IMG/VR virus record: IMGVR_UViG_3300008266_000033
Location: 64,412-128,411 of that record
Reading direction: 5' to 3' (one strand)
Source: a virus
Length of the DNA: 64,000 nucleotides
Part shown: in pieces, positions 35,613-61,530 of the stretch
Layout: each line of letters opens with the position of its first letter
How positions within the stretch are numbered: position 1 is the first letter of the stretch
Position numbers and translations under genes: made by a program
Notes under the pieces: model-generated
Database searches by the model: none
Told to the model about the DNA's origin: nothing
Seen by the model: the letters and a program-made list of their open reading frames with translations, nothing else

Positions 35613-36593
35613 TTATTTTAATCCAGCTAATTTTTGCATTCTTGAGAATACATCATTAACTTCGATTATTGGTTGTTTTGTCTCTGGTTTTGAAATAACT
35701 TTAGAAGCTGAACCTAATGATTCTTTAATAGATGATTTGGTTTTGTTAGTATTTACCATTAAAGATTCATAAACTAGTTTTACTTCTTTTACATTTAATG
35801 CTTTATCAAAAGCACTTAAAACTTTAACTTTTTCAGACTCAGTCAATGATTTAGCTTTGAAAATCTTGTTGGTATAAAGAAGTTTTGCATTCAAAAGATT
35901 AATTTCGTTAAGTTCGCTTTTTAATGTTTTAATAACATCATATGCTTCTTTTAACTTTTCATCTTCTTCATCTTTTTTAGGAGCTGATTTTTTCTTATCT
36001 CTCATTGCTTGCATTTTCATCTTCATTGATTTTTCTTTTGCTGCTTCAGCTAAAAGTTCATCAATGCTGATTTCTTCTGCACCTCCCATTTCTTCTTCAC
36101 CACCCATTTCTGGTTGGCCACCTTCTAATTCTCCAGAAGCTACCATATCTTGAATTACATCTTCAATAAATTTGGTAAGATCTCCTTCTGACATGTCTTC
36201 GATGTTAAACTCTTCTTCAGTTTCCATTTCTTCGCCTTCTTCATCACCTTCGGCTTCGTAAAGTTCTTCTAAATCTTCACCTTCTTCCATTGGTTCTGAA
36301 TCTTTGTCTAATTCGGCTAGAAGTTCTTCTAAATCGAGTTCTCCTTCTTCCATTGATTCTTCGCCTTCTTCCATTTTCATATCGTCACCTTCATACATTT
36401 TTTCTTCATCCATGTACATGTTTTCTTCCATTTCATCCGCTTCATCTAATGCAGCGATTCTAGTGGCTAAGGTTTCTTTTAAAAATGGAGTAAAAGCTTC
36501 TTCTAAAGCAACTTTAGCTTGAGCTAATGCGGTTTCTTTTACTGCTTTGGCATCAGCGATAGCTTCTTTAAGCAGGTCTCTGTTTGATTCCAT
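35613..36593 (-). CDS. prohead core/scaffold protein (gp22-like)
   Basis: Very acidic and coiled-coil, many LxE sites, lies between protease and MCP, ends RMQKLAGLK. Confidence 0.8.
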   Translation of the reverse strand: MESNRDLLKEAIADAKAVKETALAQAKVALEEAFTPFLKETLATRIAALDEADEMEENMYMDEEKMYEGDDMKMEEGEESMEEGELDLEELLAELDKDSEPMEEGEDLEELYEAEGDEEGEEMETEEEFNIEDMSEGDLTKFIEDVIQDMVASGELEGGQPEMGGEEEMGGAEEISIDELLAEAAKEKSMKMKMQAMRDKKKSAPKKDEEDEKLKEAYDVIKTLKSELNEINLLNAKLLYTNKIFKAKSLTESEKVKVLSAFDKALNVKEVKLVYESLMVNTNKTKSSIKESLGSASKVISKPETKQPIIEVNDVFSRMQKLAGLK

Positions 36594-36626
36594 AAAATTT
36601 AATCCTCAAAATTTTTTGTTGGGAAA

Positions 36627-36690
36627 TATACTTATTAGTCAAGTATAATAAAAATAGATAGTTATCGATGCTATATCAGTAAAATAGCAT
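36627..36690 (-). promoter_or_regulatory. two-hairpin 5' leader of the scaffold-MCP operon
   Basis: Inverted repeats TATACTT/AAGTATA (36627-36647) and ATGCTAT/ATAGCAT (36668-36690). Confidence 0.45.
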
Positions 36691-36732
36691 ATTCGGGCAT
36701 ACATACCGCAAAAATTTTCAAAAAATCGATAT

Positions 36733-36783
36733 AAAAAAAGAAAGGCGCATTTCTGCGCCTCGATCCTAAAAGACTATTTTAGG
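36733..36783 (-). terminator. terminator (with an upstream hairpin) after prohead protease
   Basis: CCTAAAA-TAGTC-TTTTAGG, then AGGCGCA-GAAA-TGCGCCT followed by TTCTTTTTTT. Confidence 0.8.
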
Positions 36784-36790
36784 AGGGGTT

Positions 36791-37435
36791 CTAATATAAT
36801 GGGCATGTGCCATTAGCACATAAAATTTCGGTAATTAATTTATTTACTTTATTATATGGGTTTATATCGGTAGATTTACCTTCGGCTAATTGAACTGTTT
36901 TCATCCAAGATCCTGGATTTGATGGGTTTGATACTGCGTCCCATGTTAATAAATCAAAATCATCTTGAACTTCCATTACTTCTCCTACTTGTTCCAATGA
37001 ACCCATACCACGAGAAGAAATTCCAAATAATAGTTTATTTTTTATATAGGCTCCTAAAATTCTTCCTGATACTGTACCATATTCACCTGGATCAGAAAAT
37101 ACTTCTAATATTCCTTTTACATGATCACCATCCCACCATATTTTTCTGATTGCATGAGAGCCATTTTTTAAATTGATGATTTGGCTATCAGGATGGTCTA
37201 ATTCTCCCACTGTTTCAGTGGTACCCATATTAATTTTTTGCTGGAATTTATTTAATTCTCTTTCCCAAAGTTCTTTTTTATAATAACGACCATTACCATT
37301 TTTTACCTCTACAGTGGCTAATACCCCTTCAACAAATATGTTTTTATTTGAAGATATATTACCTAATCCTTCTATTAATTTAATAGGAGGAGTAGTATAA
37401 GTGAATGGTTTGGTTTCTATTAATAATTCTTTCAT
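36791..37435 (-). CDS. prohead core protease (gp21-like)
   Basis: N.NGRYY, GELDHP, SH.I, GISSRG.GS, DF.L..WD.VS.PS. Confidence 0.95.
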   Translation of the reverse strand: MKELLIETKPFTYTTPPIKLIEGLGNISSNKNIFVEGVLATVEVKNGNGRYYKKELWERELNKFQQKINMGTTETVGELDHPDSQIINLKNGSHAIRKIWWDGDHVKGILEVFSDPGEYGTVSGRILGAYIKNKLLFGISSRGMGSLEQVGEVMEVQDDFDLLTWDAVSNPSNPGSWMKTVQLAEGKSTDINPYNKVNKLITEILCANGTCPLY

Positions 37436-37441
37436 GAATAT

Positions 37442-38260
37442 CTATTTATTACTAAATTGTTTTTGATAAGCATTATCACCAATTGCGTTTCTATGGAGTT
37501 GATTAATCTCATCCCAACCATCATCATTTACATATATTTTATCTTTAGTACCATCATCATAAGTTATATTATATGATGTATCACCATTTTGGGTATATGT
37601 TCTAACTGTTTTTCCATTAATCTCAATAGAACCTTCATTTAATTCTTCTTTAATAATTTTAGAAATATGTTCACGAAGTTTAGATTCTTTTACAATTTTG
37701 GGAGCTACTTCAACACCTGCGGCTTTATATTTACCTTTTACTTCTTTAGTAGGAGTTGATTCTTTATAACCTATACCTTTAATACCAAATTGGCTGTTTT
37801 TAGTATAATACATGATATCTTTAGCTAAATTTTTAGCTACGATAGCCTTTAATTCTTCAACTGTTTTTTCAGAATTTTTAGGATCTTTCATCTCAACATA
37901 GTAACCTGTAAGAAATTGAGGTCCAAAAACATTATCAATATTTTTAGGATCTTTATAATCAAAACCTCTAGTTTCCATATCAACTATTTCTTTAGTTGGT
38001 TTAGATTCTATAGCTTTAGCTTCATTAATATTTTCATCAAAAATTTTAAACCAATCTGGTTTTTGATCTGATTGAGTTACTAAACCACCAATAAATCTTT
38101 CAGTTAAAATAGATTTATTTTTTAAAATTTTAGTAGCATCATTAAATGAAGTGTATTGATTTACATATTGAGGAAATATACGTCTTGCAGATTTCATAAA
38201 GAAATCTTTATCACCTTTTCCTTCTAAAATTAAATTATATTGTTCTTGTAGTGTTTTCAT
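37442..38260 (-). CDS. hypothetical head-associated protein with LxE-ending leaders
   Basis: Begins MKTLQEQYNLILE; internal SKLREHISKIIKEELNE. Confidence 0.7.
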   Translation of the reverse strand: MKTLQEQYNLILEGKGDKDFFMKSARRIFPQYVNQYTSFNDATKILKNKSILTERFIGGLVTQSDQKPDWFKIFDENINEAKAIESKPTKEIVDMETRGFDYKDPKNIDNVFGPQFLTGYYVEMKDPKNSEKTVEELKAIVAKNLAKDIMYYTKNSQFGIKGIGYKESTPTKEVKGKYKAAGVEVAPKIVKESKLREHISKIIKEELNEGSIEINGKTVRTYTQNGDTSYNITYDDGTKDKIYVNDDGWDEINQLHRNAIGDNAYQKQFSNK

Positions 38261-38263
38261 TTG

Positions 38264-39614: not shown

Positions 39615-39655
39615 TAGGATAAAAAGTTATTTTTGTTATAAATATGTAAAAAAGA

Positions 39656-41545
39656 TTAATCTTCCCGTATATTGTCTTCATCTAGTAAAGAGCTGGCTTC
39701 TTGTTCTTCTCTAAAAAGATTTAACTTTTTATCCAACCCTTCAAGTAATGATTTACTTTGTTTATAGTGTGTTTTACTTTCTAAATTTAATCCACTTTTG
39801 CCCTTTCCGATATCAGGTTGATCATCTACTTTCATAGCTTTTACTCCTAATCTATCTTTACCTAAAGCATTATCTTGAGTATTAATATCAGATGCTTTTT
39901 CTACAGGTCGTCCTAAAGGAATATTTTCATTATACCCATCAGGTAAGTTATCAGGATTTGAACCCATTCTACCTTTACCATATAGGAATGCTAAATCATG
40001 TGGTGTACCGTAAGATTTACCAGATTCTAATGGATCATTTCCTTCGTTTAATATTTGATTAAATCTAAATGCACGTTTTTGATCTTGTACAATTAAGTCT
40101 CTATATTCAGAATATTCATCTTCACTTAAATGGAATATATTATCATAAACCCAATCTGAAGGGAGTAACTTTTTATCTAAAACATCACCTGCTAATGCTA
40201 CTTTTTCTTTTAATAAAGCAATCCTTTCCTGATCATAAATAATAGATGGAGTTGTTAATGATAATTCAAAATTAGTTAAACTTTCATCTTTATATCCCTG
40301 AGTGTATAAATGGATTAATGCTATTTTATATAATTCAGATAAAGCAATTCTTTGAATTCTATCAATAGTACGAGCAAATCTAATATCTTCTGCTGCTAAA
40401 GTAGCTTTACCTGTTAAATCTTTATCATAACCCAAAAATGCTTTTGGTACTTTTAATGCAGCAAATAATTTATCTCTTAAATAAGCAACGTCTTGAATAC
40501 CATCATAATCTAATCCTTTTGTAGTATCAATTCTAGTAGCACTATCATTACCTCTAACAGGAATGTAAAAATCTTCTAACATGTTTTGCATGTTATATTT
40601 TAAATTATACTCACCTGTTTGAGGATCCATAAGAGGAGTACGTTTCATAGTGGTAATAGTTTTTTGCATAAAACCTTCTACCTCGTTTGGTGGAATACCT
40701 CCTACGTTAATATAAAATATACGTTTCTCAGGAGCTCTAGCTATTCTATGAATAAGCATAGCATCTTCCATTAAAGTATATTGTTTAAATATTTTTCTAG
40801 CTGGTTCCAAATATGATCTACCATAAGGTAAAAAATTCATATCTGTTAATAATCTAAAGTGAACTATTTCGTAATTATCAAAAGTTACTCTATTAGATTC
40901 TTTATTTAAAGCTTGATTAGGTAAAGTATAATATCCTGAGGTTCCACTATAAAAACCTTCAGGTGAATAAATAAATCTTACTGCAGCTGGATGTTCTCTA
41001 TCATAATGCTCTTCTCGTGAAATGTGATAAGCAGCATATGGAATTACATTATAAACACCAAATTTTTCAGCAATTTCTAATTTTAGGAAAAAGTCACCGT
41101 ATTTACACATTTGGCGAATCCAACTCCATAAATTAAACTCAACATTTAATACATCATAAAATAAATTATAAAGAATCTTTTGAATATCATCATTAGAACT
41201 TCTAATTTGTAATACTTCTCCTAAATCATTCTTTAATGTACATTCATCTGCTATAATATCTAAACTCGAAGCAACGATAGCATCAGCATCCATCACATCA
41301 TAGTCAGAATATATTTGAGGTCTTAAATATTGGTAATTTAAATTAAGTTGATTACCATATAAAGATGTAGCTGCGGGGGAGTAAATTCGATTGAATCTAT
41401 CTATAAGAGAGTTAGTGACTACATCACCGGAGGTTTGAATGGAATCAGTATCCATTACTGTTAATTGATTACCCCCAGTGTTTCTTATAACAACATCGGT
41501 TGAAAATAATCTTTGTAATCTTGAAAATATACTTTTATCAGCCAT
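39656..41545 (-). CDS. portal protein (gp20-like)
   Basis: DIIADE, KYGD.F, PYGRSYLE, EDAMLIHRI.RAPEKRIFY, EDFYIP.RG, ALKVPK, EDIRFAR. Confidence 0.95.
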   Translation of the reverse strand: MADKSIFSRLQRLFSTDVVIRNTGGNQLTVMDTDSIQTSGDVVTNSLIDRFNRIYSPAATSLYGNQLNLNYQYLRPQIYSDYDVMDADAIVASSLDIIADECTLKNDLGEVLQIRSSNDDIQKILYNLFYDVLNVEFNLWSWIRQMCKYGDFFLKLEIAEKFGVYNVIPYAAYHISREEHYDREHPAAVRFIYSPEGFYSGTSGYYTLPNQALNKESNRVTFDNYEIVHFRLLTDMNFLPYGRSYLEPARKIFKQYTLMEDAMLIHRIARAPEKRIFYINVGGIPPNEVEGFMQKTITTMKRTPLMDPQTGEYNLKYNMQNMLEDFYIPVRGNDSATRIDTTKGLDYDGIQDVAYLRDKLFAALKVPKAFLGYDKDLTGKATLAAEDIRFARTIDRIQRIALSELYKIALIHLYTQGYKDESLTNFELSLTTPSIIYDQERIALLKEKVALAGDVLDKKLLPSDWVYDNIFHLSEDEYSEYRDLIVQDQKRAFRFNQILNEGNDPLESGKSYGTPHDLAFLYGKGRMGSNPDNLPDGYNENIPLGRPVEKASDINTQDNALGKDRLGVKAMKVDDQPDIGKGKSGLNLESKTHYKQSKSLLEGLDKKLNLFREEQEASSLLDEDNIRED

Positions 41546-41567
41546 GACTATACGATAATGAATTTTT

Positions 41568-44337: not shown

Positions 44338-44371
44338 ATAAAGTATTTTGTTATAAATATATTAAAAGGAT

Positions 44372-44395: not shown

Positions 44396-44415
44396 TAACT
44401 AATAAATATATAAAC

Positions 44416-47876: not shown

Positions 47877-50621
47877 TTATTTTTTAAGTCCTGCAATTTT
47901 TTGCATACGCAAAAATTCTTCAGATTTATTTTCTTTTAAATTATATTTGAAATTTGTTGTACCTGTAGAAGATGTGGTTCCTGAGGGTTTATTTTGAGGT
48001 GTTGTGGATGGGTTTTCTAAATTTTTATCTTTATTATATTCAGTAAATGCATCTCTTATAGCATTTTTTAATTTATTTGAATCTTTTTTTAAATTAGGTC
48101 CTAAAAAAGGAATTATTTCTCTTAATATTATTTGAATAGCACCTTCAGGTGTTTTTATATAACCAAATAAGGTTTTTAAATATCCATCTTTTACAATACT
48201 ATTAACAACATTTTGAGTATCTTTATTATCAATTTCTTGGATTCTATTTCTTAAACCTGTAAAAACAGATTGAATTTTTATATTATCTTGTTTTAAATCT
48301 TTATCAAGAGTATTAAAAATAGCTAATACTAATTCTTTAAATTCATCTTGAGTATCAATTTTAGACATATAATTTTTTAAACTTGTCCTTTGGGATATAG
48401 TGTCACCTATTTTATTAACAGCTGGTAAAGTTTTATTTTTATCTTGAAGTTTATCAAAATAACTTTTTTTAGTTTCACCTTTTCCTAAAAATACATAATT
48501 TCCTCCAGGTTGAGGATTAAATCCTATATCTTTAAGATCATTTTTTTCTTCATCAGATAATTCATCAGTATTTAATATACTTAAAGTATTATCTGCTTCA
48601 GAAGCATACATACTACCTAATAAAGCTAATAGTTGAACTTTTTTATTTTTTACATCATCATCTGATACCCCAAATTCATTAAATATATCATCAATCAGTG
48701 CTTCATTTAAGTAAAGTAATGTTTGATTTTTTATTTCTTGAAGTTTTTGAATTTGAGCTTGTGTGTCTTTACCTGGACGAGTTGATATTGCTTTGGCTCT
48801 AGGTTTTAATGTTACTCCTAAAATTCCTGAATATTTTTTGGTTAAACTATCAGGTGATTTTCTTAGGGTTATAATTAATTTAGCTAATTTTTTAGCTTTA
48901 TCTGATGTTTGATTACCTTTATAATCACCTTTAATAATATTATTTAAAGTAGTATCACTAAGATTAATAATATTTTTTTCACCTAATTCAGAATAAATAT
49001 TAAGTTCAGGACTAGTACGAGATAATACAAATCCTATTTGACCATTTCTATTAAATTTAGAAATATTTTCTACATCCTGTTTTATTTTACTAGGTTCAGG
49101 TGGAGGTATGTCAAGAATAATAGGTTTAGTTTCTTCTTCATCAGATTTAGGTTCATCAGATTTAGGTTTTTCTGGTTTTGGTTTTTCTCTAGGAGTTAAA
49201 TCAGGAGCTAAAAATTGATAATAAAGTAATTTTATTGGATCTCCTTGTTCAGAAGTTTCAATATCACTTTTTATTTTTTGAAATGAAGATTGGGTTTCTA
49301 AATTATCTTGAGCTTTTTGTATTTTTTGATCATCAATACCATCAGTAGTATTAACTTTCTTATATTTTATATTTACATCAAAATCTTCACCATATGTTTT
49401 TTTAATGAGTTTTTCTATTTTTTCACCAGCCGCTTTAGCTACTTTTTCAGATGAATCTAAACGTTTAGCATTTAAATCTCCTCCATCACCAGCTACATTA
49501 CTATCATCTCCTTGATTATGAGATACAGAAGAACCATAATCTATTTCTAAATCAATTTTAGATAATTTTTGACCTTTATTATCTTTAAATTTATTATTTA
49601 AGTCTTCTATTGTTTTTTTAACTAATTCATCTGATGCTTTATTTACATCATCTTCAGATAAATCTCCTTCACCAGTATCATATGTTTGAGCAGTAGTCGC
49701 ATTACTATCATCATCTGAAAAATCGATACCTTGAGTATCAACATTATTATTTTCAAGATTTTTTACTACTTGATCAGAATCTACAGTAATATCAACATCA
49801 CCCCCAGAAATTGGTTTAATAACTTCATCAGCATTTTGATCAAAATCTGAATCTTGGGATAAATCTAATACTCCTTGAATATCTTTATCAGCTAAAGCTC
49901 CACTAGGACCATATTCTCCTTCTACTGCTATATCGGCTGCTAAAGCTATAGTAGGAGCTGCTACTCCTTGTAATACAGAGGCCGCAGCTAAAATAGGCAT
50001 AAAAGTTTTAAAACCTTTAAGTAATCCTGGGAATTTTTTTCTTAGAAATTTTAAAACTCCTCCTTCTTGCGAATTGTCTGTGTATTTTTTATTTCTTAAT
50101 GAAACTATAGTAGGAGGAATTGATGCATCTTCAAGAGAATACCCTGACAATACTGTGTATGCTACTCCTGGTTGGAGACCTTGTTTCTTTTTTGATTTTT
50201 CATCAGCATTGATAAGTATTCCTTCATATTCAGCATCTGGAAGAGAATCTCCATCCCATTTAAATATATCTCCTGGTTCTAATTGATTTAATTGAGATAA
50301 TTCAGTAAATGAACCTTTATCTGCTTCTGATAAAGGTTTATTAGGTGTAATAATACTTTGAAAAGCTCTTAAAAAATCTTTAGAACTTTTAAAAACTTTT
50401 AATTTATTTAATTCTTTAAAAACTTCTTTAGGAGAATAACCAGCTTGTTTTATATCATCAAGAACATTTTTTATAAATTCTTTAGATTCAGGTTGAAGTT
50501 TTTGATAATTTTGTTGAATTTTATTATCTCCAGCAAATTCTAATAATATATCATTAGATTTAAATTCAATTCCTGCTAATTGTTGCATACGCAGAAATTC
50601 ACCATTTAAAGACTTCTCCAT
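47877..50621 (-). CDS. large putative internal/ejection protein with RMQ(K/Q)(L/I)AG at both termini
   Basis: EFLRMQQLAG (N-terminus) and EFLRMQKIAG (C-terminus); central hydrophobic stretch; several LxE sites. Confidence 0.7.
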   Translation of the reverse strand: MEKSLNGEFLRMQQLAGIEFKSNDILLEFAGDNKIQQNYQKLQPESKEFIKNVLDDIKQAGYSPKEVFKELNKLKVFKSSKDFLRAFQSIITPNKPLSEADKGSFTELSQLNQLEPGDIFKWDGDSLPDAEYEGILINADEKSKKKQGLQPGVAYTVLSGYSLEDASIPPTIVSLRNKKYTDNSQEGGVLKFLRKKFPGLLKGFKTFMPILAAASVLQGVAAPTIALAADIAVEGEYGPSGALADKDIQGVLDLSQDSDFDQNADEVIKPISGGDVDITVDSDQVVKNLENNNVDTQGIDFSDDDSNATTAQTYDTGEGDLSEDDVNKASDELVKKTIEDLNNKFKDNKGQKLSKIDLEIDYGSSVSHNQGDDSNVAGDGGDLNAKRLDSSEKVAKAAGEKIEKLIKKTYGEDFDVNIKYKKVNTTDGIDDQKIQKAQDNLETQSSFQKIKSDIETSEQGDPIKLLYYQFLAPDLTPREKPKPEKPKSDEPKSDEEETKPIILDIPPPEPSKIKQDVENISKFNRNGQIGFVLSRTSPELNIYSELGEKNIINLSDTTLNNIIKGDYKGNQTSDKAKKLAKLIITLRKSPDSLTKKYSGILGVTLKPRAKAISTRPGKDTQAQIQKLQEIKNQTLLYLNEALIDDIFNEFGVSDDDVKNKKVQLLALLGSMYASEADNTLSILNTDELSDEEKNDLKDIGFNPQPGGNYVFLGKGETKKSYFDKLQDKNKTLPAVNKIGDTISQRTSLKNYMSKIDTQDEFKELVLAIFNTLDKDLKQDNIKIQSVFTGLRNRIQEIDNKDTQNVVNSIVKDGYLKTLFGYIKTPEGAIQIILREIIPFLGPNLKKDSNKLKNAIRDAFTEYNKDKNLENPSTTPQNKPSGTTSSTGTTNFKYNLKENKSEEFLRMQKIAGLKK

Positions 50622-52167: not shown

Positions 52168-52934
52168 TTTGTTTTACCCCATTTTTTACCTTTACCAGGT
52201 GTTTTACATTGAGCGGGTGTAGGACGACATGAAGGATATTTAGCACGTTTTTCACCTTTTTGTCTACCACAAGGTTTACATTTACCATTGCGGCATGTAT
52301 TACAATCTACCCATCCACCTGTTTTACCAGGAGCACCTTTGCGTTTAAACCAGGTGCGCAGAGTTTCTTTTTGTGCTTCGGTTAATTCTTCTGTAACTAT
52401 TTTTTTATAACTATTTTTAATATTATTTATTCTTTTTAGCCATTCTTCTTTATAATTAATACCATTTGGAGCGGGTTTATCTGTTACAAATTGCTCAATT
52501 CTTGGTTCAATATAAATTAAAAAACCTCTTATTATACCTAATATAGATGAGAGCAGTTTTGGGTTGCTGGGAATATTATTGATATTATCTTTAAGAAAAT
52601 CAAAATAATTTTTACCATTTATTATTGGTTTTCTTAATTGTTGCATCATAAGAGTAAGTTCTTTAGTTGCATTTTCATCTTTTCCCATTTTAGTAATTTG
52701 ACTAAAATTAAGAGATATAAGTGTGCTAAAATCTACTAAAAAATCTTTAACCTCAGCAGGAGTAGATGCTTCTTTTAAATCTTTCCAGATTTTACCTTTA
52801 CGACACCTAACGATAGCACCTGATTTATAAGCAGAAGGTTTATCAAATTTGCGATCTGCAATACGTTTACAACGATCAGCTTTCTTTTTTTCTTCTAAAA
52901 GAATTTCATTTAATATATCAATAAGTTTTACCAT
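52164..52934 (-). CDS. modular Cys/basic protein with leader MVKLIDILNEILLEE
   Basis: Basic Cys module, then LKE, helical insert, LTE, and a second basic Cys module (WVDCNTC...KPCGR...YPSCRP). Confidence 0.75.
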   Translation of the reverse strand: MVKLIDILNEILLEEKKKADRCKRIADRKFDKPSAYKSGAIVRCRKGKIWKDLKEASTPAEVKDFLVDFSTLISLNFSQITKMGKDENATKELTLMMQQLRKPIINGKNYFDFLKDNINNIPSNPKLLSSILGIIRGFLIYIEPRIEQFVTDKPAPNGINYKEEWLKRINNIKNSYKKIVTEELTEAQKETLRTWFKRKGAPGKTGGWVDCNTCRNGKCKPCGRQKGEKRAKYPSCRPTPAQCKTPGKGKKWGKTK

Positions 52935-55900: not shown

Positions 55901-56644
55901 AAAACCTTCTTCATCATCACTAAAAAAGAATTTTTCCCAAACTAAATTATTTATTGCGTCTTCAGATTTAAGTTTAACAATAGTATTAATGATTTCATCA
56001 TAATATTCATTATTTTCATCATCATCCTCATCTTGCAATGATTTAAAATAATCTATAACTGCTTGTCTATAATATTTAAATCTATTAGGAACTAGAACTT
56101 CAATTTCTTTCATAATTACTTTAGAAGAACCACCAGCCATTTTTTGTCCTTGTGCTAACATAGACAAAAACATAGCTATTGCGTTTTCATCATCATAAAC
56201 ACCAAATACTTTTTTCATTATTTGGTTGTAATTTTCTACTAATGATGGATCTAAATCATCTAAATGTTCTTTAAATAAATAGAATGCAAATGCCCCACGC
56301 AATGCAGCACCTTGTGTAATTGCGTTAGTAATACGACGACGAGATTCTGGTGAAAGGGCTTCATCTAATTCTCTTCCTACCTCAGCCATATCCACTATTT
56401 TAGCATCTAAAACAATACCTTCTTGATCAATGATAGGGTAAAGTTCTTTAACCATATCTACAGCTAATTGTTCTAACTGTGCTTTATATGGTGCTTCTGC
56501 TCTAATGATTTGAGATAACAATCGTTGAGAAGACATCATAGCCTGCATGAGATTTTCATTACCTAACATATCTTTTAGGTTCTCTGAAGACTTTTTATTT
56601 AATTTTTGTAATGTTTTAGAGCTAAAAAAATCTTTGTATTCCAT
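52928..56644 (-). CDS. large modular protein (putative polyprotein)
   Basis: 1238 aa; junctions IMKEIEVLVP, ILTE/IIE, GLDEIRVKAP, QLNE, DLKE. Confidence 0.75.
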   Translation of the reverse strand: MEYKDFFSSKTLQKLNKKSSENLKDMLGNENLMQAMMSSQRLLSQIIRAEAPYKAQLEQLAVDMVKELYPIIDQEGIVLDAKIVDMAEVGRELDEALSPESRRRITNAITQGAALRGAFAFYLFKEHLDDLDPSLVENYNQIMKKVFGVYDDENAIAMFLSMLAQGQKMAGGSSKVIMKEIEVLVPNRFKYYRQAVIDYFKSLQDEDDDENNEYYDEIINTIVKLKSEDAINNLVWEKFFFSDDEEGFEDFKNEIEDKIKNILTESQIIEADSGITIKARAICFPMLVHELIKGLYELISLQGFKGDKEANQAVVDKVDLLKNEPSDIRYGKFIFDALNNAFIDSGLSDDLRAREFFFQEVYQLDDDEFILFIENAINEELTPSQQKWVKDTLRDITVDLKSDDFSATGLDEIRVKAPSSKIKDPSSFPVLDLKIGKYDVSKGRVGASVSFYGKNVDNRTRQRVLSVFNKLGIEPKETWVGWIKGDGDYVRSMRSTFVLSYYKGEPILIAQTQTENPQAGQLYIYSKYFKSGKALRLPDPDEKNIDDSKIFADGNATKEQILQALKINDNAEPDQLNEYSDKVINATLDRWKDEKGYDQNAAKQLIQRFDQIKGSLAQKLDIVVLPDELKKSNKYLDINQYSFEDMIKLIASIPENPEKAKKEAIKKFVEKEGIDRNTAQSYVARFMTKKDDLKFAGQEGSTISKEDIDQFVPKRLMINNAYLDPRNWTWEPFEQMMDALFPAAGKSVEGEENTVSTDADKIYDKNGIEIYKGDDVHKCISYNPVEKGTKKYGWCVTQIGNTNYDYYRFGDQSPTFYFVFDRNKPSSGPKGSFDDQWHAFVIQVTADGKTYIVTGANNRGDIRANGWEGIEKIVPPDTWAKIKDLKDYFKPIALSPVERGRKFASGKNLTLDEFKELTQDEKILYIQGKASKNAITPDILAILPKYKINLEGRSTTLANVAIDSGQKFSYSALKDNEALAKRYAVFRFRHTNYSADPIPLPYVKYLDDAAKQKYADTFDGYLTYEYLDKYFGEKVTSDYVNKQIKNLDFLPKEASKYIKDPKLKQLFEIYSKLFDSWEYEANTNIDDEQLENLSDMPEQQIDPRPMLYSQWTALSDSERKAIMTLAEKYDQNTEYATLIWGLPFIIKDGSNTYALLPVDKERSTLYPKWVLSDDKGKIVKTLSGKSTLNNNSIEGGYADVERSYQRVYGMNDLKMVESDLKETISKDLTQFFTQKKSW

Positions 56645-56645
56645 A

Positions 56646-56930
56646 TTATCGTATAAATATTCTATTTAATGTAAATAAGAATTCTTCTTCACCATATCCC
56701 ATATCTTCATATATTTTAGATATTTCTACTAAACTATTAACATCATCTGGGACTTCGCTTAGTGCTTGTTTAAAATCAGCTATATATTCTTCAGGATCTT
56801 CAAATTCAAGCTCTTCTGCTGTATCTGCCATATCTTGTACTAGAGCTGCTTTTAATGTATCTAACGAAACAGGAATAATCCCACCTGGGGATTTTACCTT
56901 AATTTCATTTAAAAGATCAACTAGTTTCAT
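56646..56930 (-). CDS. small acidic protein with leader MKLVDLLNEIKVKSP
   Basis: 94 aa; D/E-rich after the leader. Confidence 0.75.
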   Translation of the reverse strand: MKLVDLLNEIKVKSPGGIIPVSLDTLKAALVQDMADTAEELEFEDPEEYIADFKQALSEVPDDVNSLVEISKIYEDMGYGEEEFLFTLNRIFIR

Positions 56931-57163
56931 TTTGATAATTTTTTAAAGCGAGCAGCAATTTTTTTAGCCATTTCTTCTTCCTTCATCATAGCCTTTGGTC
57001 TAGGATTAGGAGCTTTATCTTTATCAGGAACTAAGGATCTACGTTTAGGTTTAGTTCCAGTTTCTTCTTTTTCTTTGGTTCCTGGTTTAGTTATAGTTTC
57101 GTTTTCTTTTAAAGAATTTAAAAGTTCTTCTTTAATAATTCTACGGAGTTCTGAAAGATTCAT
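56927..57163 (-). CDS. small protein with leader MNLSELRRIIKEE
   Basis: 78 aa; K/P/E-rich. Confidence 0.7.
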   Translation of the reverse strand: MNLSELRRIIKEELLNSLKENETITKPGTKEKEETGTKPKRRSLVPDKDKAPNPRPKAMMKEEEMAKKIAARFKKLSK

Positions 57164-57178
57164 AGTTTATTTGTTTTT

Positions 57179-57727
57179 TTATCCGAAATATTGATTTTCA
57201 AAATACAATACTTCAAAGTTATTAGATACGTTAATTAATTGGGCTGCGTTTAATAAATCAGCATATTCTGCTACTGATGTTTTTTGGATAATTCTTAATT
57301 CTTGTAAGAAATCAAAAGTAGCTAAATCTGCTGGAAATACTTCTGCTGAATTTGAGTTATATTTGGCAAATAGATCATATTCTAATTGATATGCTTTATT
57401 TACTACATCGATAAGATTAGAAAATACAGGAATCATTTTAACCGAAGGAATAACAGGCATTACATTCCAACTAGTTAAATAATTTTGTATTTTTTCAGCA
57501 TGAGTTAACTCATTATCTGCTTCTGCTTTAAAATAAGCTGCTGCTTTTTTATATGCTTTATCTTCACACCAGTTAGATGCGTTTCTATAGAAATAGTGAG
57601 CAGTATATTCGTCACCTATTCTTTCAATAAGCATTTTAGCTACTTCAGGTGATAAAGTTTTAGGAATTAAAACTTCTGATTGTGAAGCAGGTTGTATTTC
57701 GTTAAGTAAATTTAACTTATTATTCAT
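57179..57727 (-). CDS. ferritin-like protein
   Basis: E..A..FY....WC....Y..AA.YF..EA..E..HA.K..Y; E; D.AT.DFLQ....Q..EY ferroxidase pattern. Confidence 0.85.
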   Translation of the reverse strand: MNNKLNLLNEIQPASQSEVLIPKTLSPEVAKMLIERIGDEYTAHYFYRNASNWCEDKAYKKAAAYFKAEADNELTHAEKIQNYLTSWNVMPVIPSVKMIPVFSNLIDVVNKAYQLEYDLFAKYNSNSAEVFPADLATFDFLQELRIIQKTSVAEYADLLNAAQLINVSNNFEVLYFENQYFG

Positions 57728-57739
57728 ATCAATTTATTT

Positions 57740-58642
57740 TTACCAGTAACCACTAAAGTTTTTAGAACCACCCAAAGATTTCCAATATCTACCTATTCGG
57801 CAAGACCAATATGAGGCTTTAGTTCTATCTGTCTTTTGTGCACATTTGTGTCGTTTAGCAAAAGCATTTCTAGCTTTAGGATCATTTATTTTTGTTGATA
57901 AACCACCTGAATCTCCAAAAGATACTTTTCTAACTTTACCTTTATCCATTACATAAACATAGAATTTCTTACCTGAAGATCCTCCACGTTTTGGTTTACC
58001 AATTTGTACTTTTTTGCCTTGATATTCTGCTTCATTTAAATCTAATAAATGTTTATAATCATCATAAACATCATAATCTATTAAAATAGACATAATATTA
58101 TTTAAATCAAATTTAGGAGCAGAATATGCATCTAATAAATCTTGATATAAATCTGAATCAGGGCCCCAATCATTACTAACATAAGTTAGAATTTTTTCAT
58201 AAGGTACAGCAGATACCATATCAGCCATTTCTATATCTTCCATTCCTCCTAATGTATCTCCAAAAATGTCAAGAGTTTCTTCAATCATAGGCATATCTAA
58301 GGGTACTAATTTACCCTCATATAAACCATATTGACCTAAATCAGTTTCTAATATAATTTCTTTATCTAATCCTGATAAACTAACGGCATTGCGAGAATAT
58401 AAATAACGAGCTTCAGCCCATAAATCTAAAAATGATTTAGAGCCATATCGGAATGTGTTTTCAGTAAGCGGTTTTTTATTGTCTATATGATATTTCATAT
58501 TTTCGGTCATAACCACTTGCGCTTTTAAACCTTCATTTAATATAGGCGCTTTAGAACAACCACCACCACATCCACAACCACAGTCATGTTTTACATTTTG
58601 TTTTAATAAAACTTCTCTAATGATTTTTTTGATGTTTTCCAT
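57740..58642 (-). CDS. modular protein (CxCxC N-terminus; LNE-preceded basic C-terminal module)
   Basis: IKKIIREVLL leader; LNEAEYQGKKVQIGKP...KVSFGD...RHKC...YWSC. Confidence 0.75.
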   Translation of the reverse strand: MENIKKIIREVLLKQNVKHDCGCGCGGGCSKAPILNEGLKAQVVMTENMKYHIDNKKPLTENTFRYGSKSFLDLWAEARYLYSRNAVSLSGLDKEIILETDLGQYGLYEGKLVPLDMPMIEETLDIFGDTLGGMEDIEMADMVSAVPYEKILTYVSNDWGPDSDLYQDLLDAYSAPKFDLNNIMSILIDYDVYDDYKHLLDLNEAEYQGKKVQIGKPKRGGSSGKKFYVYVMDKGKVRKVSFGDSGGLSTKINDPKARNAFAKRHKCAQKTDRTKASYWSCRIGRYWKSLGGSKNFSGYW

Positions 58643-58653
58643 AATTATAAATA

Positions 58654-59787
58654 TTACTGTATTTTGACAAATTCTCCATCTATCAATTCATAAATATGGG
58701 TAGCTGAAGTTGCTATTTTTTTAGTTTGAACAATTGATTCATTGTGTTTTATTCCAAACATATTTCTATCATAACGATATGAAGCCACAAAATATGGATA
58801 GTAATCACCTTGAGGGATTTGTGGGGGTAATAAATAGTAAGGAGCAGATAAACTATATAAATTTTCTCCTTGAGGTATAAGTTGGATTTCTCCTTGTGTT
58901 ATAATGTTTACATTTTCTGATCCATAAGAATTACTTCCATATTCAGGACCATAAATTAATTTTCTGATTAAATTTTCATTCTTTACAGGAGCTATAAATT
59001 TTGTAGTATTAGGCATTCCTACTAAACCTTTATCAATAAGAAACTTTTTTAATTTTAAAATGAATTCTTCAACTTCAGGTTCATTTTCATATCTAGTAAA
59101 ACCACTCCATCTTATAAAATCACCTGCAGATGGTTCTGATCCTCCTGATTTTTTATGAGAGATAAAAATTTGAGGATTACTATCTTGATCAAATAAGAAA
59201 AAATCTGCTTTTGGTGTTTTAGGTTGAGTTGCAGCTCCTATAATATTATTATAAATTTGTCCTCCAACTATTATATTGATAGGTTCTCCATTATTTTGTT
59301 CAATACGAGTTTGAATTTTTTCTGAGAGTAATCTTAGATTATAATCTTCAACTTTTGTACCTGAGCCTTTGCCTTTACCTCCAAAATATGGATCTTTTAA
59401 TAAATCAGAAATACTATATTCTGTTCCTGAATCGTCTTTAAAAAACTTAAATAAATTTATATCTTTAGGGGAAAATAATTTTATTCTAGCATCTTCTGCT
59501 TTTTCAAAAGCCTCTTGATATTCAGGTTTTGAAAATTCTAAAGCAGTAGAACTTCCGTTAACTAATTCAAATGGAACTTTATTTTTAATTCTAGTGGCTA
59601 GATCTTTAAATCTATAACCTCCTCGTTTTTTTAAATCTCCAAATGATAGTTGCTTAAAAATTTCGTGTAAACCCATTTGTTCAAAAACTGATTCCAAAAT
59701 TAAGATATCCTGTTCATTATTCATGTCAGGATATCCTTTTGGAAATTTATATGCTATTTTATTTAAGAATGTATCTAAAATGTCCAT
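58654..59787 (-). CDS. putative PD-(D/E)xK-fold nuclease with N-terminal leader
   Basis: E.YNL...TPKADF...IFISHK; leader YKFPKGYPD...ILE...LHE. Confidence 0.5.
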   Translation of the reverse strand: MDILDTFLNKIAYKFPKGYPDMNNEQDILILESVFEQMGLHEIFKQLSFGDLKKRGGYRFKDLATRIKNKVPFELVNGSSTALEFSKPEYQEAFEKAEDARIKLFSPKDINLFKFFKDDSGTEYSISDLLKDPYFGGKGKGSGTKVEDYNLRLLSEKIQTRIEQNNGEPINIIVGGQIYNNIIGAATQPKTPKADFFLFDQDSNPQIFISHKKSGGSEPSAGDFIRWSGFTRYENEPEVEEFILKLKKFLIDKGLVGMPNTTKFIAPVKNENLIRKLIYGPEYGSNSYGSENVNIITQGEIQLIPQGENLYSLSAPYYLLPPQIPQGDYYPYFVASYRYDRNMFGIKHNESIVQTKKIATSATHIYELIDGEFVKIQ

Positions 59788-60299
59788 TATGCTGGTACTT
59801 CAGGTGTTTCTTCTTCTGGTGCTTCTTCTGGTGTTTCTGGTGGTGCTTCACCTGTTTCTTCTGGTGGTGTTTCACCTTCTCCTGGTTCTTTTTCAGGTTG
59901 TTCTGGGGCTGTAAAGTAAAGTAGTCTTGCTATTGCTTCGGCTGCTCTTTCTTCTTCATCTAAATTAAGTAAATAATATTTTTTACCTTCTACTTGAGCT
60001 ATCCAACTTCTATCAGTATGAATTATATAAAATAATTGGTTATTTTTTAATTCAATTTGAAAAGTGGTTGGTCTAGGAGCAATCCATGCTACATCTTCAA
60101 CAAATAAATTATAATTTGTGGTTAAAAGATCTATTAAAACTTGCTTTAATTCAGGAAACTTAGATAATATAGGTATAACATTATCATCTAGTGATATGTC
60201 TCCAGAATTTGGCATATCTAAATCTACGGACTTTTGTTTAGAAGACCAAACTTGCTTAACTAAAGTTTTAATTTTATCTTTTAATTCAGACTTAGTCAT
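59787..60299 (-). CDS. hypothetical protein with acidic Pro/Glu tail
   Basis: MTKSELKDKIK leader; EETPE repeats at the C-terminus. Confidence 0.7.
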   Translation of the reverse strand: MTKSELKDKIKTLVKQVWSSKQKSVDLDMPNSGDISLDDNVIPILSKFPELKQVLIDLLTTNYNLFVEDVAWIAPRPTTFQIELKNNQLFYIIHTDRSWIAQVEGKKYYLLNLDEEERAAEAIARLLYFTAPEQPEKEPGEGETPPEETGEAPPETPEEAPEEETPEVPA

Positions 60300-61108
60300 T
60301 ACTTACCTTTTAATTTAGAAATTACTTTTTCAGCTAGTTTCTTTTTATATTCATTAAGTACTGGTTCTTCATCAGAGTAATCTACATATTCCATAATGTA
60401 ATGCATAGGTTCACCTTGAGGTTCATCTTCACTTTGTAGATAATCAGAAACAGATTGTAAATAATCTTGAGCTTTAGTTAATTTGGATTGAACCCATGCA
60501 TCTAATTGTTCCCCATCATCTATAAGATTAGCTAATTTATCAACATTTTGCTTAATAGATGTTAATTGAGAATCAGCCATGCTTGATTCATCATTTTGTT
60601 GCATCCAATCATCTTCTTTAAGCATAGCTTTTTTAATAGCTAAATCTCTTGCAGCTAAATAATCTTTAGAATCAATTTTTCCATCAGGTTTTCCTTCAGG
60701 TCCTGTTAAATCTTTACCTTTTTTTTCAGGAATTGGTTTCATTAAAGCAGATTTAACTGCTTCTTTAATTTTTGATTGAGTTTCTTTTTTCATTGTACTT
60801 TTAGCTCTTTTTATTGAAGAACCTTTAGCCATTTTTTCAGCATCTTTACCATATTTACTAACTAATGATCTTTTATTAGTGGCGATCATAGCATTAAAAT
60901 ATTCTTGGGCTAATTCTTCTTCTTTATCAGATAAACCTTCAGAAACTTTAAGTGCTTTTTTAAGAGGTTTAATTGCTTTTTCTCTTTTTTTCTCTAAAGA
61001 TTTAGTTAATTTAGCTTTTTTGGCACCAGGTTGAGTTTGAGGTTTTCCTGTTTTAGCTAAATTAGTAGCTAAAGCATATGCTAACCCTGTTTTCTCTTTT
61101 TTTGTCAT
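60299..61108 (-). CDS. modular hypothetical protein
   Basis: Basic N-terminus, DGKIDSKDY, MA.SQL...L.AWVQSKLT.A.DYL; LKE/LNE linkers. Confidence 0.7.
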   Translation of the reverse strand: MTKKEKTGLAYALATNLAKTGKPQTQPGAKKAKLTKSLEKKREKAIKPLKKALKVSEGLSDKEEELAQEYFNAMIATNKRSLVSKYGKDAEKMAKGSSIKRAKSTMKKETQSKIKEAVKSALMKPIPEKKGKDLTGPEGKPDGKIDSKDYLAARDLAIKKAMLKEDDWMQQNDESSMADSQLTSIKQNVDKLANLIDDGEQLDAWVQSKLTKAQDYLQSVSDYLQSEDEPQGEPMHYIMEYVDYSDEEPVLNEYKKKLAEKVISKLKGK

Positions 61109-61530
61109 TACATTTCTTCGTCTGAGGAAATCTGAGTTCTGGTGAAATAAGTTAAAACATTACCTATTTGTCTAGTAAGTTTTTTATCTCCTAATTTTTT
61201 AGATGCTTTTAGAGCTTGCATTAACTCTTTTTGAACTTGTTCAGGAGTAGTTAATTCAGTATCTCCTTCATCATCCATAGGCATTTCATCAGCAGGCATT
61301 TCTTCTGGTGCTTCTTCAGCAGGCATTTCTTCTTCTGCTGGTACTTCTTCTTCTGCTTTTTTGGCCTCTTCTAATTCATCTTCAGGAGTTTCCATTTCCT
61401 TAAGAATCATTTCTTTAATTTTAGCTTTTAAAGAAGATTTAGTATATGTTTCTTGCATTTCTTCCTCAGGCATAAAACCTTCTGTTAATATACCTGCAAG
61501 TTTTTGCATTCTTTTAATATCTAAGCTCAT
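61108..61530 (-). CDS. acidic scaffold-like protein with N-terminal RMQKLAG
   Basis: MSLDIKRMQKLAGILTE; SSLKAKIKEMILKE. Confidence 0.75.
   Translation of the reverse strand: MSLDIKRMQKLAGILTEGFMPEEEMQETYTKSSLKAKIKEMILKEMETPEDELEEAKKAEEEVPAEEEMPAEEAPEEMPADEMPMDDEGDTELTTPEQVQKELMQALKASKKLGDKKLTRQIGNVLTYFTRTQISSDEEM

What the first reader, a model, noticed from the sequence alone, without database searches (positions are those of the whole stretch)
35622..61512. Scaffold C-terminal peptide RMQKLAG reused as a docking tag in other genes, including both ends of one protein
Seen: the scaffold ends VFSRMQKLAGLK (35622-35642). The 914-aa protein begins EFLRMQQLAGI (50571-50591) and ends EFLRMQKIAGLKK (47889-47909). 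The 140-aa protein begins DIKRMQKLAGILTE (61492-61512). That is four copies of a 7-residue motif, always at a terminus and next to LxE sites. Known: in several dsDNA phages (e.g. P22) the scaffold's C-terminal helix is the coat-binding element. Inference: cargo proteins mimic the scaffold's coat-binding peptide to be co-assembled into the prohead, a second targeting route alongside the LxE leaders. A protein tagged at both ends could bridge capsomers or tether to the shell.
Basis: partly seen in the sequence, partly recalled or inferred. Interest (0 to 1): 0.85.

Follow-up and report, generated by a model that had tools for sequence, protein, structure and literature searches.

The report
Scaffold-tail peptide reused as capsid tag
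A T4-like phage of aquatic bacteria puts a copy of the last dozen residues of its head-scaffolding protein, next to head-protease cutting sites, on the ends of three otherwise unrelated proteins, most likely as a clip-off label that loads them into the young capsid, though no loading, cutting or binding has been measured.

Summary
R-M-Q-[KQ]-[LI]-A-G occurs 4 times in the window at the stated coordinates and 5 times in the 128-kb genome. About 0.0001 are expected. All copies lie at protein termini with an [LI]xE site on the body side.

It is a clade-wide feature. In 77 of 77 relatives picked by capsid-protein similarity alone, the scaffold-position protein ends in R-[MWF]-[QKR]-x-[LI]-A-[GNF]. 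In an IMG/VR scan for RMQKLAGI, 120 of 121 hits were terminal: 94 C-terminal, mostly scaffolds, and 26 N-terminal on diverse small proteins.

In the 914-aa family the N-terminal tag is near-universal. The C-terminal tag is facultative: 7 of 36 members carry both, and 3 have it at a junction before an extra module.

Best reading: a removable prohead-targeting tag that copies the scaffold's docking tail. It works like the T4 capsid targeting sequence and like SaPI1 CpmB copying the 80alpha scaffold tail. The receptor, capsid protein or core, is unresolved.

Two searches found no paper with the motif. This scan noted the same tag earlier on three other genomes.

I rate it a new variant of a known kind, interest 0.6.

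The parts
35613..36593 (-). Scaffolding protein gene (326 aa, gp22 position between prohead protease and major capsid protein)
   Evidence: ORF and translation. It lies between the S77 protease and the gp23 MCP. tblastn similarity to the scaffold-position genes of Flavobacterium phage immuto and Microcystis phage Mel-JY01. No Pfam or PHROG hit.
35616..35660 (-). Scaffold C-terminal tail VNDVFSRMQKLAGLK (motif RMQKLAG at 35622-35642), the presumed docking peptide released by cleavage
   Evidence: Tail variants R-[MWF]-[QKR]-x-[LI]-A-[GNF] end 77 of 77 scaffold-position ORFs of relatives chosen by MCP similarity.
35661..35669 (-). IIE, candidate prohead-protease site just upstream of the scaffold tail
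   Evidence: The same register ([LIVM]xE starting 9 residues before R) is found in 69 of 94 C-terminal hits and, as [LIVM]x[ED], in 41 of 77 of the unbiased sample. Cleavage itself is inferred.
47877..50621 (-). 914-aa tagged protein, a candidate internal-head or ejection protein with a hydrophobic stretch and a central alpha/beta domain (residues about 280-460)
   Evidence: 35 homologues found. AF2 model mean pLDDT 62. Fold matches to OmpA-like/MotB/SiiA peptidoglycan-binding domains reach only Z 6.0-6.4 and are tied with FtsZ C-domain rows.
50538..50621 (-). N-terminal tag and candidate propeptide of the 914-aa protein (M1-E28; motif RMQQLAG 50571-50591; LLE-28 site)
   Evidence: An N-terminal tag is present in 31 of 36 family members. 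Residues 2-15 are predicted helical, followed by a low-confidence linker.
47880..47930 (-). C-terminal tag of the 914-aa protein (NKSEEFLRMQKIAGLKK after LKE-897; motif 47889-47909)
   Evidence: A C-terminal tag is present in 10 of 36 family members and an internal junction tag in 3 more. Helix 899-909 is predicted, followed by a 5-residue tail (GLKK plus Gly cap), at low pLDDT.
61108..61530 (-). 140-aa acidic tagged protein, a member of a family with a conserved C-terminal domain
   Evidence: BLASTP to tagged ORFs of L028 and L119 beyond the tag, E 1e-11. D+E fraction 26%.
61480..61530 (-). N-terminal tag and candidate propeptide of the 140-aa protein (M1-E17; motif 61492-61512; LTE-17 site)
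   Evidence: The register (E three residues after ...LAGI) equals the commonest register in relatives, 18 of 26.
36791..37435 (-). Prohead protease (T4 gp21 type, Peptidase_S77), the presumed enzyme that removes the tags
   Evidence: Pfam PF03420, E 5e-24.
33965..35581 (-). Major capsid protein (gp23 family), one candidate receptor. Its first ~59 residues hold four [LIV]xE sites and many invariant residues
   Evidence: Pfam PF07068, E 1e-77. Alignment of 50 homologues: invariant L7 E9 K27 W28 G32-G36 M45 L49 E50 Q52 A53 E59.

Best explanation
The peptide ([SN]-[DE]-x-[FV]-x-)R-M-Q-K-L-A-G-[IL] is the conserved docking tail of the gp22-type scaffolding protein of a large clade of aquatic T4-like phages. 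The nearest named members are Flavobacterium phage immuto, Microcystis phage Mel-JY01 and Rhodothermus phage RM378.

Other proteins carry a copy of it at their N-terminus, their C-terminus, or at a junction inside a polyprotein. During prohead assembly the copy occupies the site that normally receives the scaffold tail, so the tagged protein is built into the core. The gp21-type protease then cuts at the neighbouring [LIV]xE site. This frees the mature protein inside the head and releases the small tag peptide.

The system works like the T4 capsid targeting sequence, but the address is the scaffold's own C-terminal tail. That resembles SaPI1 CpmB, which copies the tail of the 80alpha scaffold.

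Shown here: the sequence pattern, its terminal position, its conservation, its portability across unrelated bodies, the fixed spacing of the candidate cleavage sites, and the presence of an S77 protease.

Inferred: packaging, cleavage, and the receptor. My odds for the receptor are about 50% inner face or N-terminal propeptide region of the gp23 capsid protein, 35% scaffold core, 15% other.

In this window the cargo set is the 914-aa protein (tagged at both ends) and the 140-aa acidic protein. A 176-aa protein elsewhere in the genome is also tagged.
For: 1. Non-random and terminal. 5 hits in the genome against 0.0001 expected, all within 2-3 residues of a stop or starting at residue 7-12 of the protein (6-11 residues after its first Met), with synonymous codon differences.

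2. Scaffold tail is conserved without selecting on the motif. 80 loci were chosen by MCP similarity and 77 had an upstream ORF. All 77 end with R-[MWF]-[QKR]-x-[LI]-A-[GNF], 1-6 residues before the stop. R, L/I and A are invariant across 60 distinct 15-mers. Named phages: immuto ends RWQKLAGIIK*, Mel-JY01 ends RMKKLAGIVK*, RM378 ends RIKRLAGL*.

3. Reuse. Of the 94 C-terminal hits, 89 have a gp23 homologue close downstream on the same strand: about 50-95 nt after the motif in most, about 1.0-1.2 kb in 5 divergent loci. 4 are non-scaffold proteins. 12 of the 26 N-tagged ORFs, plus none of the one 'other' hit, share a locus with a TerL or portal homologue of this clade.

4. Portability. After removing the tag, 35 tagged non-scaffold proteins fall into 30 BLAST clusters. 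Matches of the fifth-copy protein to the others stop within the first ~20-50 residues.

5. Cleavage-site geometry. 26 of 26 N-terminal tags have [LIVM]xE within 12 residues after the tag, against a 17% background, with E at +3 in 18. 69 of 94 C-terminal tags have the site starting exactly 9 residues before R.

6. An S77 gp21-type protease is encoded next to the scaffold.

7. Leader swapping among orthologues. In the 914-aa family, 31 of 36 members have the N-terminal tag. Three of the five without it (P0045-P0047) start with a different conserved leader ending in PLLE, PLME or PLLKE.

8. Precedents read in papers (passages only). T4 CTS propeptides target internal proteins to the core and are removed at L/I-x-E, and Alt is processed at both ends (PMC9026906). 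The 80alpha scaffold's last 16 residues form an 11-residue amphipathic helix plus a 5-residue hook that binds the capsid protein N-arm, and CpmB copies it (PMC5644958). The AF2 model of the 914-aa protein puts an 11-residue helix (899-909) before the final five residues G-L-K-K region, at low confidence.
Against: There is no experimental or proteomic evidence that any tagged protein is in the virion or is cleaved. I found no paper on Mel-JY01, and none of the 8 papers listed for immuto (search listing only) concerns its virion.

The gene for the fifth tagged protein lies among nucleotide-metabolism-like genes and is not in the structural region.

[LI]xE sites are common in these Glu-rich proteins: background is 61% for a 14-residue window in scaffolds. 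For C-terminal tags, only the fixed register is informative, not mere presence.

One of 121 hits (L056) lies 40 residues before the stop, and 3 of 36 family members have the tag 79 residues before the end. The tag is therefore not strictly terminal.

The general motif regex used was written after looking at the tails.

The invariance of RMQKLAG in alignment A1 is circular, because those loci were found with that pattern.

Classical T4-like scaffolds (JS10, S-SSM7, HTVC008M) end differently, so nothing known about T4 gp22's tail transfers directly.
Confidence: 0.62

Rival explanations
1. The peptide is a processing element and not an address. It would be a protease-docking exosite or a latency pro-sequence that the gp21-type protease recognises. 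The tagged proteins would reach the head by other means, or would simply be protease substrates.
For: The tag always lies beside a candidate [LIV]xE site in a fixed register, and the protease gene is adjacent to the scaffold gene. [quoted passage not shown]
Against: The register differs with the side. The E lies 3 residues after the tag at N-termini, but the site E lies 7 residues before R at C-termini, which is hard to fit to one enzyme-substrate geometry. This genome has many other candidate LxE sites and leaders without the tag. The scaffold has many internal [LI]xE sites far from its tail.
Confidence: 0.15
2. The tagged proteins are not cargo. They are extra scaffold or core components, analogues of T4 gp67/gp68, and the shared tail is a core-core polymerisation element. 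They would be degraded and expelled like the scaffold, not delivered.
For: The 140-aa protein is acidic (26% D+E) and belongs to a conserved family. In locus L085 an N-tagged ORF sits between the portal and protease genes, the position of gp67/gp68 in the T4-like phage JS10. T4 internal proteins co-purify with gp22.
Against: 30 sequence clusters among 35 tagged bodies, several only 60-120 residues long and non-acidic, look like a fast-changing accessory set and not like core scaffold parts. The 914-aa protein has folded domains and few internal [LI]xE sites: 9 in 914 residues, two of which flank the tags.
Confidence: 0.15
3. The shared peptide has no function of its own. It would be a by-product of recombination or gene fusion that spreads a piece of the scaffold gene, or of one leader exon, among genes.
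For: In three family members the second tag looks like the start of a formerly separate small gene fused in frame (...NMKKPLLNEEFSRMQKLAGIITEE...). A GIY-YIG-like ORF lies just downstream of the 914-aa gene.
Against: The five copies differ at synonymous positions. The peptide is kept across MCP lineages only 38-70% identical, while everything around it diverges. Its position is terminal in 120 of 121 hits.
Confidence: 0.04

Closest known systems
Capsid targeting sequence (CTS) of phage T4 internal proteins IPI-III, and the propeptides of Alt
   Same: A short terminal peptide on sequence-diverse proteins of a T4-type head. It is removed by a gp21 (S77) protease at L/I-x-E and is sufficient in T4 to load foreign proteins. 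Alt has propeptides at both ends, like the 914-aa protein here (PMC9026906 passages).
   Different: The tag here is longer, with a conserved core of about 8 residues and about 15-22 residues in all. It also occurs at C-termini and at internal junctions. It is a copy of the scaffold's own C-terminal tail. I did not compare it with the T4 CTS letters, because no call returned them. Function here is inferred only.
Helix-and-hook C-terminal tail of the 80alpha scaffolding protein, and its copy on SaPI1 CpmB
   Same: The last ~16 residues of a scaffold (an amphipathic helix plus a short basic hook, RIIK) are the capsid-protein-binding element, and a second protein carries the same tail to use the same site (PMC5644958 passages). 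The tail here also ends in a helix followed by G-I-I-K or G-L-K.
   Different: 80alpha is a siphovirus with an unrelated scaffold. A profile of the tails found no PDB chain of 80alpha or CpmB. CpmB is a competitor from a satellite, whereas the copies here are on the phage's own proteins, are often N-terminal, and are flanked by protease sites. Binding to the capsid protein is not shown here.
P22 scaffolding protein C-terminal helix-loop-helix (RKLK)
   Same: A basic C-terminal element of the scaffold contacts the coat protein (as cited in PMC5644958). The tag here has conserved R and K three residues apart.
   Different: The fold is different (helix-loop-helix). P22 has no protease, and no cargo reuse is known to me (recalled).
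Encapsulin cargo-loading peptides
   Same: A short terminal peptide on diverse cargo docks to the inner face of an HK97-fold shell. This is a recalled, works-like comparison only.
   Different: There is no encapsulin here. The tag is removed by a protease and is shared with a scaffold. No sequence relation was tested.

Membership tests
T4-type capsid targeting propeptide (CTS) system | A gp21-type (Peptidase_S77) prohead protease is encoded with gp20, gp22-position and gp23 genes | tested here: met
   PF03420 E 5e-24, PF07230 E 2e-69, PF07068 E 1e-77 on neighbouring genes.
T4-type capsid targeting propeptide (CTS) system | A short terminal peptide shared by otherwise unrelated proteins | tested here: met
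   35 tagged non-scaffold proteins fall into 30 BLAST clusters once the tag is removed. 120 of 121 hits are terminal.
T4-type capsid targeting propeptide (CTS) system | An L/I-x-E cleavage site separates the tag from the mature protein | tested here: met
   Sequence level only. 26 of 26 N-terminal tags against a 17% background. 69 of 94 C-terminal tags have the site in one register. All five copies in this genome have a site.
T4-type capsid targeting propeptide (CTS) system | The tag is necessary and sufficient for encapsidation and is removed in the prohead | not testable with these tools
   This needs virion mass spectrometry or reporter fusions. No proteomics for relatives was found.
T4-type capsid targeting propeptide (CTS) system | Sequence relatedness to the T4 CTS itself | not tested
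   No call returned the T4 CTS sequence. The review passages read do not print it.
Scaffold C-terminal coat-binding tail (80alpha SP/CpmB helix-and-hook; P22 type) | The element lies at the extreme C-terminus of the scaffolding protein and is the most conserved part of it | tested here: met
   77 of 77 scaffold-position ORFs end in the motif 1-6 residues before the stop, while the rest of the last 42 residues averages 49% column identity.
Scaffold C-terminal coat-binding tail (80alpha SP/CpmB helix-and-hook; P22 type) | Amphipathic helix followed by a short hook | tested here: inconclusive
   The AF2 model of the 914-aa protein gives helices at residues 2-15 and 899-909, the latter followed by the last five residues. 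pLDDT there is about 40-56. The scaffold itself was not folded.
Scaffold C-terminal coat-binding tail (80alpha SP/CpmB helix-and-hook; P22 type) | Direct contact with the major capsid protein N-arm | not testable with these tools
   This needs a prohead cryo-EM map or binding assays. See Tried and rejected for what was attempted.
gp22-type scaffolding protein (for the 326-aa ORF) | Position between the gp21 and gp23 genes, an acidic helical protein, and similarity to the scaffold-position genes of relatives | tested here: met
   Gene order. tblastn to the immuto and Mel-JY01 scaffold-position genes, E 2e-22 and 5e-15. 86 of 94 C-terminal-hit loci show similarity to it. No Pfam or PHROG model matches, so relation to T4 gp22 proper rests on position and on a short shared stretch seen by eye in JS10 gp22.
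OmpA-like peptidoglycan-binding domain (for residues ~280-460 of the 914-aa protein) | Fold match clearly above unrelated folds, and a sequence-family hit | tested here: inconclusive
   Foldseek best E 0.014, none at or below 0.001. VIA-align Z 6.4 (SiiA, rmsd 3.1, 102 aligned) and Z 6.0 (OmpA-like), tied within 1 with FtsZ C-domain rows at Z 5.9. No Pfam hit and no PDB sequence hit.

The most novel reading that the evidence does not exclude
The tail is a position-independent cargo-loading peptide for T4-type capsids. As a helix-and-hook it would bind one conserved pocket of the gp23 propeptide/N-arm region, the same pocket the scaffold uses, whether it sits at an N-terminus, a C-terminus or a polyprotein junction.

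This phage clade may in fact copy both ends of its scaffold as two separate address tags. The second would be the N-terminal ...LL-x-E leader class, which resembles the scaffold's own start MESNRDLLKEAI. The tags are sometimes combined on one protein: L033, L035 and L092 carry an N-terminal leader of the other class plus a C-terminal RMQKLAGIIK.

That would give a natural, programmable two-address system for filling a phage head. It would also give a direct handle on how the T4-type core is built, which a 2023 review calls 'mysterious'.
Probability: 0.3. Interest if true: 0.8.

Novelty: new variant of a known kind. Interest (0 to 1): 0.6.

Why it matters
How proteins are sorted into the scaffolding core of T4-type heads is unsolved. 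The 2023 T4 head review says the mechanisms 'remain mysterious' and that the core structure is unresolved (PMC9958956).

This clade offers a sharply defined peptide of 8-15 residues that is near-invariant, present on the scaffold itself, and present on dozens of unrelated proteins. That turns the question into simple experiments: peptide pull-downs, reporter loading, and prohead cryo-EM. The cultured Flavobacterium phage immuto has both a scaffold copy and one N-terminal copy.

The tag also gives a sequence rule for listing candidate packaged (possibly injected) proteins in hundreds of uncultured aquatic phage genomes. It may also serve as a portable loading tag for engineering.

Tried and rejected
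1. Complex prediction of the full MCP (alignment A2, 50 rows) with the last 42 residues of the scaffold (alignment A1, 86 rows). ipSAE was 0.00 and 0.00, below the mark of 0.32. The verdict was 'no answer' and the controls were not run. This says nothing for or against binding.

2. Covariation between tail position 2 (M/W/F) and MCP columns. The state changes 11 times on an MCP tree, but only 6-8 independent pairs exist. No MCP column followed the state in 4 or more pairs. The test has no power and tells nothing about the receptor.

3. The search for related loci with the 914-aa protein in IMG/VR. 13 pattern matches, none a relative. The homologue search then found 35.

4. Family libraries. 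Pfam and PHROGs gave no family for the scaffold, the 914-aa protein or the 140-aa protein. PHROGs also gave none for the N-terminal 45 residues of the fifth protein.

5. PDB by sequence. The profile of the 914-aa family gave 0 hits at E up to 1. The profile of the scaffold tails gave only two APC16 chains at E 0.25 and 1.2, which I take as chance. No 80alpha or CpmB chain appeared.

6. Foldseek on the 914-aa model found nothing at E 0.001 or better. The OmpA-like resemblance stays a lead only.

7. I looked for a remnant of the 79-residue module that follows the second tag in P0013, P0028 and P0031. Only the tags themselves match in this genome. The C-terminal tag here is therefore not visibly the stump of a recently split gene.

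8. Literature. 0 papers contain 'RMQKLAG' or 'MQKLAG'. 0 papers name Mel-JY01. Of the 8 papers naming immuto, none by title or abstract concerns its virion (listing only).

9. A DNA-repeat or recombination-site reading was rejected because the codons differ among copies.

10. Classical T4-likes (JS10, S-SSM7, HTVC008M) do not carry this tail, so I do not claim the motif for T4 itself.

Full report
**Setting.** The window is the second half of a 128,411-bp genome at 30% G+C, with nearly all genes on the - strand. It holds a T4-type head module:
- large terminase, 41568-43151
- gp20 portal, 39656-41545
- Peptidase_S77 prohead protease, 36791-37435
- a 326-aa acidic protein in the scaffold position, 35613-36593
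- a gp23-family major capsid protein, 33965-35581

The nearest named phages by MCP are Flavobacterium phage immuto (57% identity), Microcystis phage Mel-JY01 (50%) and, more distantly, Rhodothermus phage RM378 (about 41%). Classical T4-like phages match only the C-terminal half of the MCP, at about 28-37% identity.

**The observation.** Looser patterns add nothing. The genome has a fifth copy outside the window, at the start of a 176/187-aa ORF.
- Composition predicts 0.0001 hits, and none of 100 shuffles gave any.
- The copies differ at synonymous positions (AGA/CGT, CTT/TTA/ATT, GCA/GCT/GCG, GGT/GGA/GGC), so the peptide is what is conserved.
- Three copies start at residue 7-12 of their protein (6-11 residues after its first Met), and two end 2-3 residues before the stop.
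- Each has an [LI]xE triplet on the body side.

**It is the tail of the scaffold in a whole clade.** To avoid selecting on the motif, I fetched 80 IMG/VR loci by MCP similarity.
- 77 had an ORF ending just upstream of the MCP gene; 3 were at contig edges.
- All 77 end in R-[MWF]-[QKR]-x-[LI]-A-[GNF], 1-6 residues before the stop. R, L/I and A are invariant over 60 distinct 15-mers. I wrote this regex after seeing the tails.
- An [IVLM]-x-[ED] site starts 9 residues before R in 41 of the 77.
- Named phages: immuto ends RWQKLAGIIK*, Mel-JY01 ends RMKKLAGIVK*, and the RM378 gene upstream of its MCP ends RIKRLAGL*.
- The gp22 proteins of JS10 (T4-like), cyanophage S-SSM7 and pelagiphage HTVC008M end differently. 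This particular tail therefore marks the immuto/RM378-like branch and not T4-likes in general.

**It is reused on unrelated proteins, always at ends.** From base composition I estimated roughly ten chance hits; this is my own arithmetic, not a tool result.
- Of 121 hits, 94 lie 4 or fewer residues before a stop and 26 lie 15 or fewer residues after the start of the ORF. One (L056) lies 40 residues before the stop.
- 89 of the 94 C-terminal hits have a gp23 homologue close downstream on the same strand (about 50-95 nt in most, about 1.0-1.2 kb in 5 divergent loci), and 86 resemble this scaffold. Four (L033, L035, L092, L104) are other proteins.
- 12 of the 26 N-tagged ORFs share their locus with a TerL or portal homologue of this clade. 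In L085 the tagged ORF sits between the portal and protease genes.
- With tags removed, 35 tagged non-scaffold proteins, including the three of this genome and one of immuto, fall into 30 BLASTP clusters.
- The N-terminal form is stereotyped: M-K-K-Q-I-L-S-E-E-F-x-RMQKLAGI-I-T-E. All 26 have [LIVM]xE within 12 residues after the tag, against a 17% background, and E is at +3 in 18.
- For C-terminal tags mere presence of a site is uninformative (85 of 94 against a 61% background). The register is fixed, however: 69 of 94 start 9 residues before R.

**The doubly tagged 914-aa protein.** A database search found 35 homologues at 28-74% identity. Counting the query, the 36 members split as follows:

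| Tag arrangement | Members |
|---|---|
| N-terminal tag only | 21 |
| Both ends (this protein plus P0038-P0043, a sub-lineage 32-34% identical by alignment A3) | 7 |
| N-terminal tag plus a second tag 79 residues before the end, where it leads into an extra small module (...NMKKPLLNEEFSRMQKLAGIITEE...) | 3 |
| C-terminal tag only (one is a fragment) | 3 |
| Neither | 2 |

- Three of the five members without the N-terminal tag (P0045-P0047) begin with a different conserved leader that ends in PLLE, PLME or PLLKE.
- The N-terminal tag is thus the rule and the second tag is facultative. The tag can also sit at a polyprotein-like junction, and different leader types replace each other in orthologues.
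- I found no remnant of the extra module in this genome.
- The AF2 model (mean pLDDT 62) predicts both tags as short helices (2-15 and 899-909) set off by low-confidence linkers. It also predicts confident domains at about 100-175, 300-460 and 510-600.
- The 280-460 domain resembles OmpA-like/MotB/SiiA peptidoglycan-binding domains, but only weakly: Foldseek best E 0.014; VIA-align Z 6.4, rmsd 3.1 over 102 residues; tied with FtsZ C-domain rows at Z 5.9. I keep the idea of an ejection protein that meets the cell wall as a lead only.
- The 140-aa protein is acidic and belongs to a family (with L028 and L119) that shares the tag and a C-terminal domain.

**Mechanism.** The anatomy is a conserved scaffold tail, copied onto diverse proteins, at ends, beside sites of the kind cut by the gp21 protease encoded next door. 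That is what a removable prohead-targeting tag should look like. From passages of PMC9026906:
- T4 internal proteins carry N-terminal propeptides that give affinity for the core.
- Those propeptides are cut off at L/I-x-E and suffice to load foreign proteins.
- Alt is trimmed at both ends.

What is new here is that the address equals the scaffold's own C-terminal tail. The best structural precedent is 80alpha (PMC5644958, passages):
- The last 16 scaffold residues form an 11-residue amphipathic helix plus a 5-residue hook (RIIK).
- This element binds the capsid protein N-arm.
- The satellite protein CpmB carries nearly the same tail and uses the same site.

The tails here (...F-x-R-M-Q-K-L-A | G-I-I-K) have the same outline.

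Whether the receptor is gp23 or the scaffold core is open. The gp23 N-terminal ~59 residues are strongly conserved and hold four [LIV]xE sites. The T4 literature favours the core. Neither of my two attempts to decide between them gave an answer; both are described under Tried and rejected.

**Comparison and novelty.** This works like the T4 CTS and like the CpmB/80alpha tail mimicry. It is not shown to be a sequence relative of either. No paper in the searched library contains RMQKLAG or MQKLAG.

The same tag was already noted by this scan on three other genomes, with the same reading (e1-5705091, e1-5659451, e1-6006929). My results were obtained independently before I read those notes, and they agree.

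What this window adds:
- the doubly tagged large protein and its family history
- the junction form of the tag
- leader swapping in orthologues
- the unbiased 77-of-77 scaffold sample
- the named-phage anchors (immuto, Mel-JY01, RM378)

**Verdict.** I rate it a new variant of a known kind, interest 0.6, with confidence 0.62 in the targeting-tag reading.

Noticed in passing
window 51757-63137, and genome 4253-4624 (outside the window): A second leader class. 14 of 162 ORFs have [LIVMF][LIVM]xE[IAVLS] within residues 2-16, against 2.3% of internal windows. Several read M-K-L-[IV]-[ND]-[LI]-L-[NS]-E-[IA], which resembles the scaffold's own start MESNRDLLKEAI. Cargo leaders may therefore copy both ends of the scaffold. 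In IMG/VR, L033, L035 and L092 combine a different N-terminal leader (M-E-L-R-K-Y-I-R-E-M...) with a C-terminal RMQKLAGIIK.
   Followed up: partly
window 33965-35581 (first ~59 codons of the MCP, about 35405-35581): The gp23 N-terminal region is almost as conserved as the shell domains across 50 homologues (invariant L7 E9 K27 W28 G32-G36 M45 L49 E50 Q52 A53 E59). It holds four [LIV]xE sites (LLE-9, LLE-35, LLE-50, VTE-59), suggesting a multiply cut propeptide.
   Followed up: partly
window 47099-47716 (-): The 205-aa ORF directly downstream of the 914-aa gene starts MTKIYILERDGVPFYVGKAKNPIRRKHKH, which looks to me like a GIY-YIG homing-endonuclease start (by eye, recalled motif). A similar ORF lies at genome 49577-50212.
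   Followed up: no
genome 43010-44964 (outside the window): The phage encodes a GroEL-like 549-aa protein and a GroES-like 96-aa protein, judged by their N-terminal sequences by eye. T4 relies on a GroES substitute to fold gp23 (recalled).
   Followed up: no
window 37442-38260 (-): The 272-aa ORF between the portal and protease genes begins MKTLQEQYNLILEG, that is, a short leader ending in an LxE site inside the head module. It is another candidate core protein with a clip-off start.
   Followed up: no
L001 11998-13239 (immuto NC_055915, 125626-126867): The scaffold-position gene of Flavobacterium phage immuto is annotated 'DNA polymerase phi-like protein' in the public record. Its position, its similarity to this scaffold and its RWQKLAGIIK tail indicate it is the head scaffolding protein.
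   Followed up: yes
PDB chains 8tar_H and 4ui9_E (APC16): Human APC16 contains ...VARMEKLAGL, the only PDB sequence match to the tail profile (E 0.25 and 1.2). I take it as chance.
   Followed up: no
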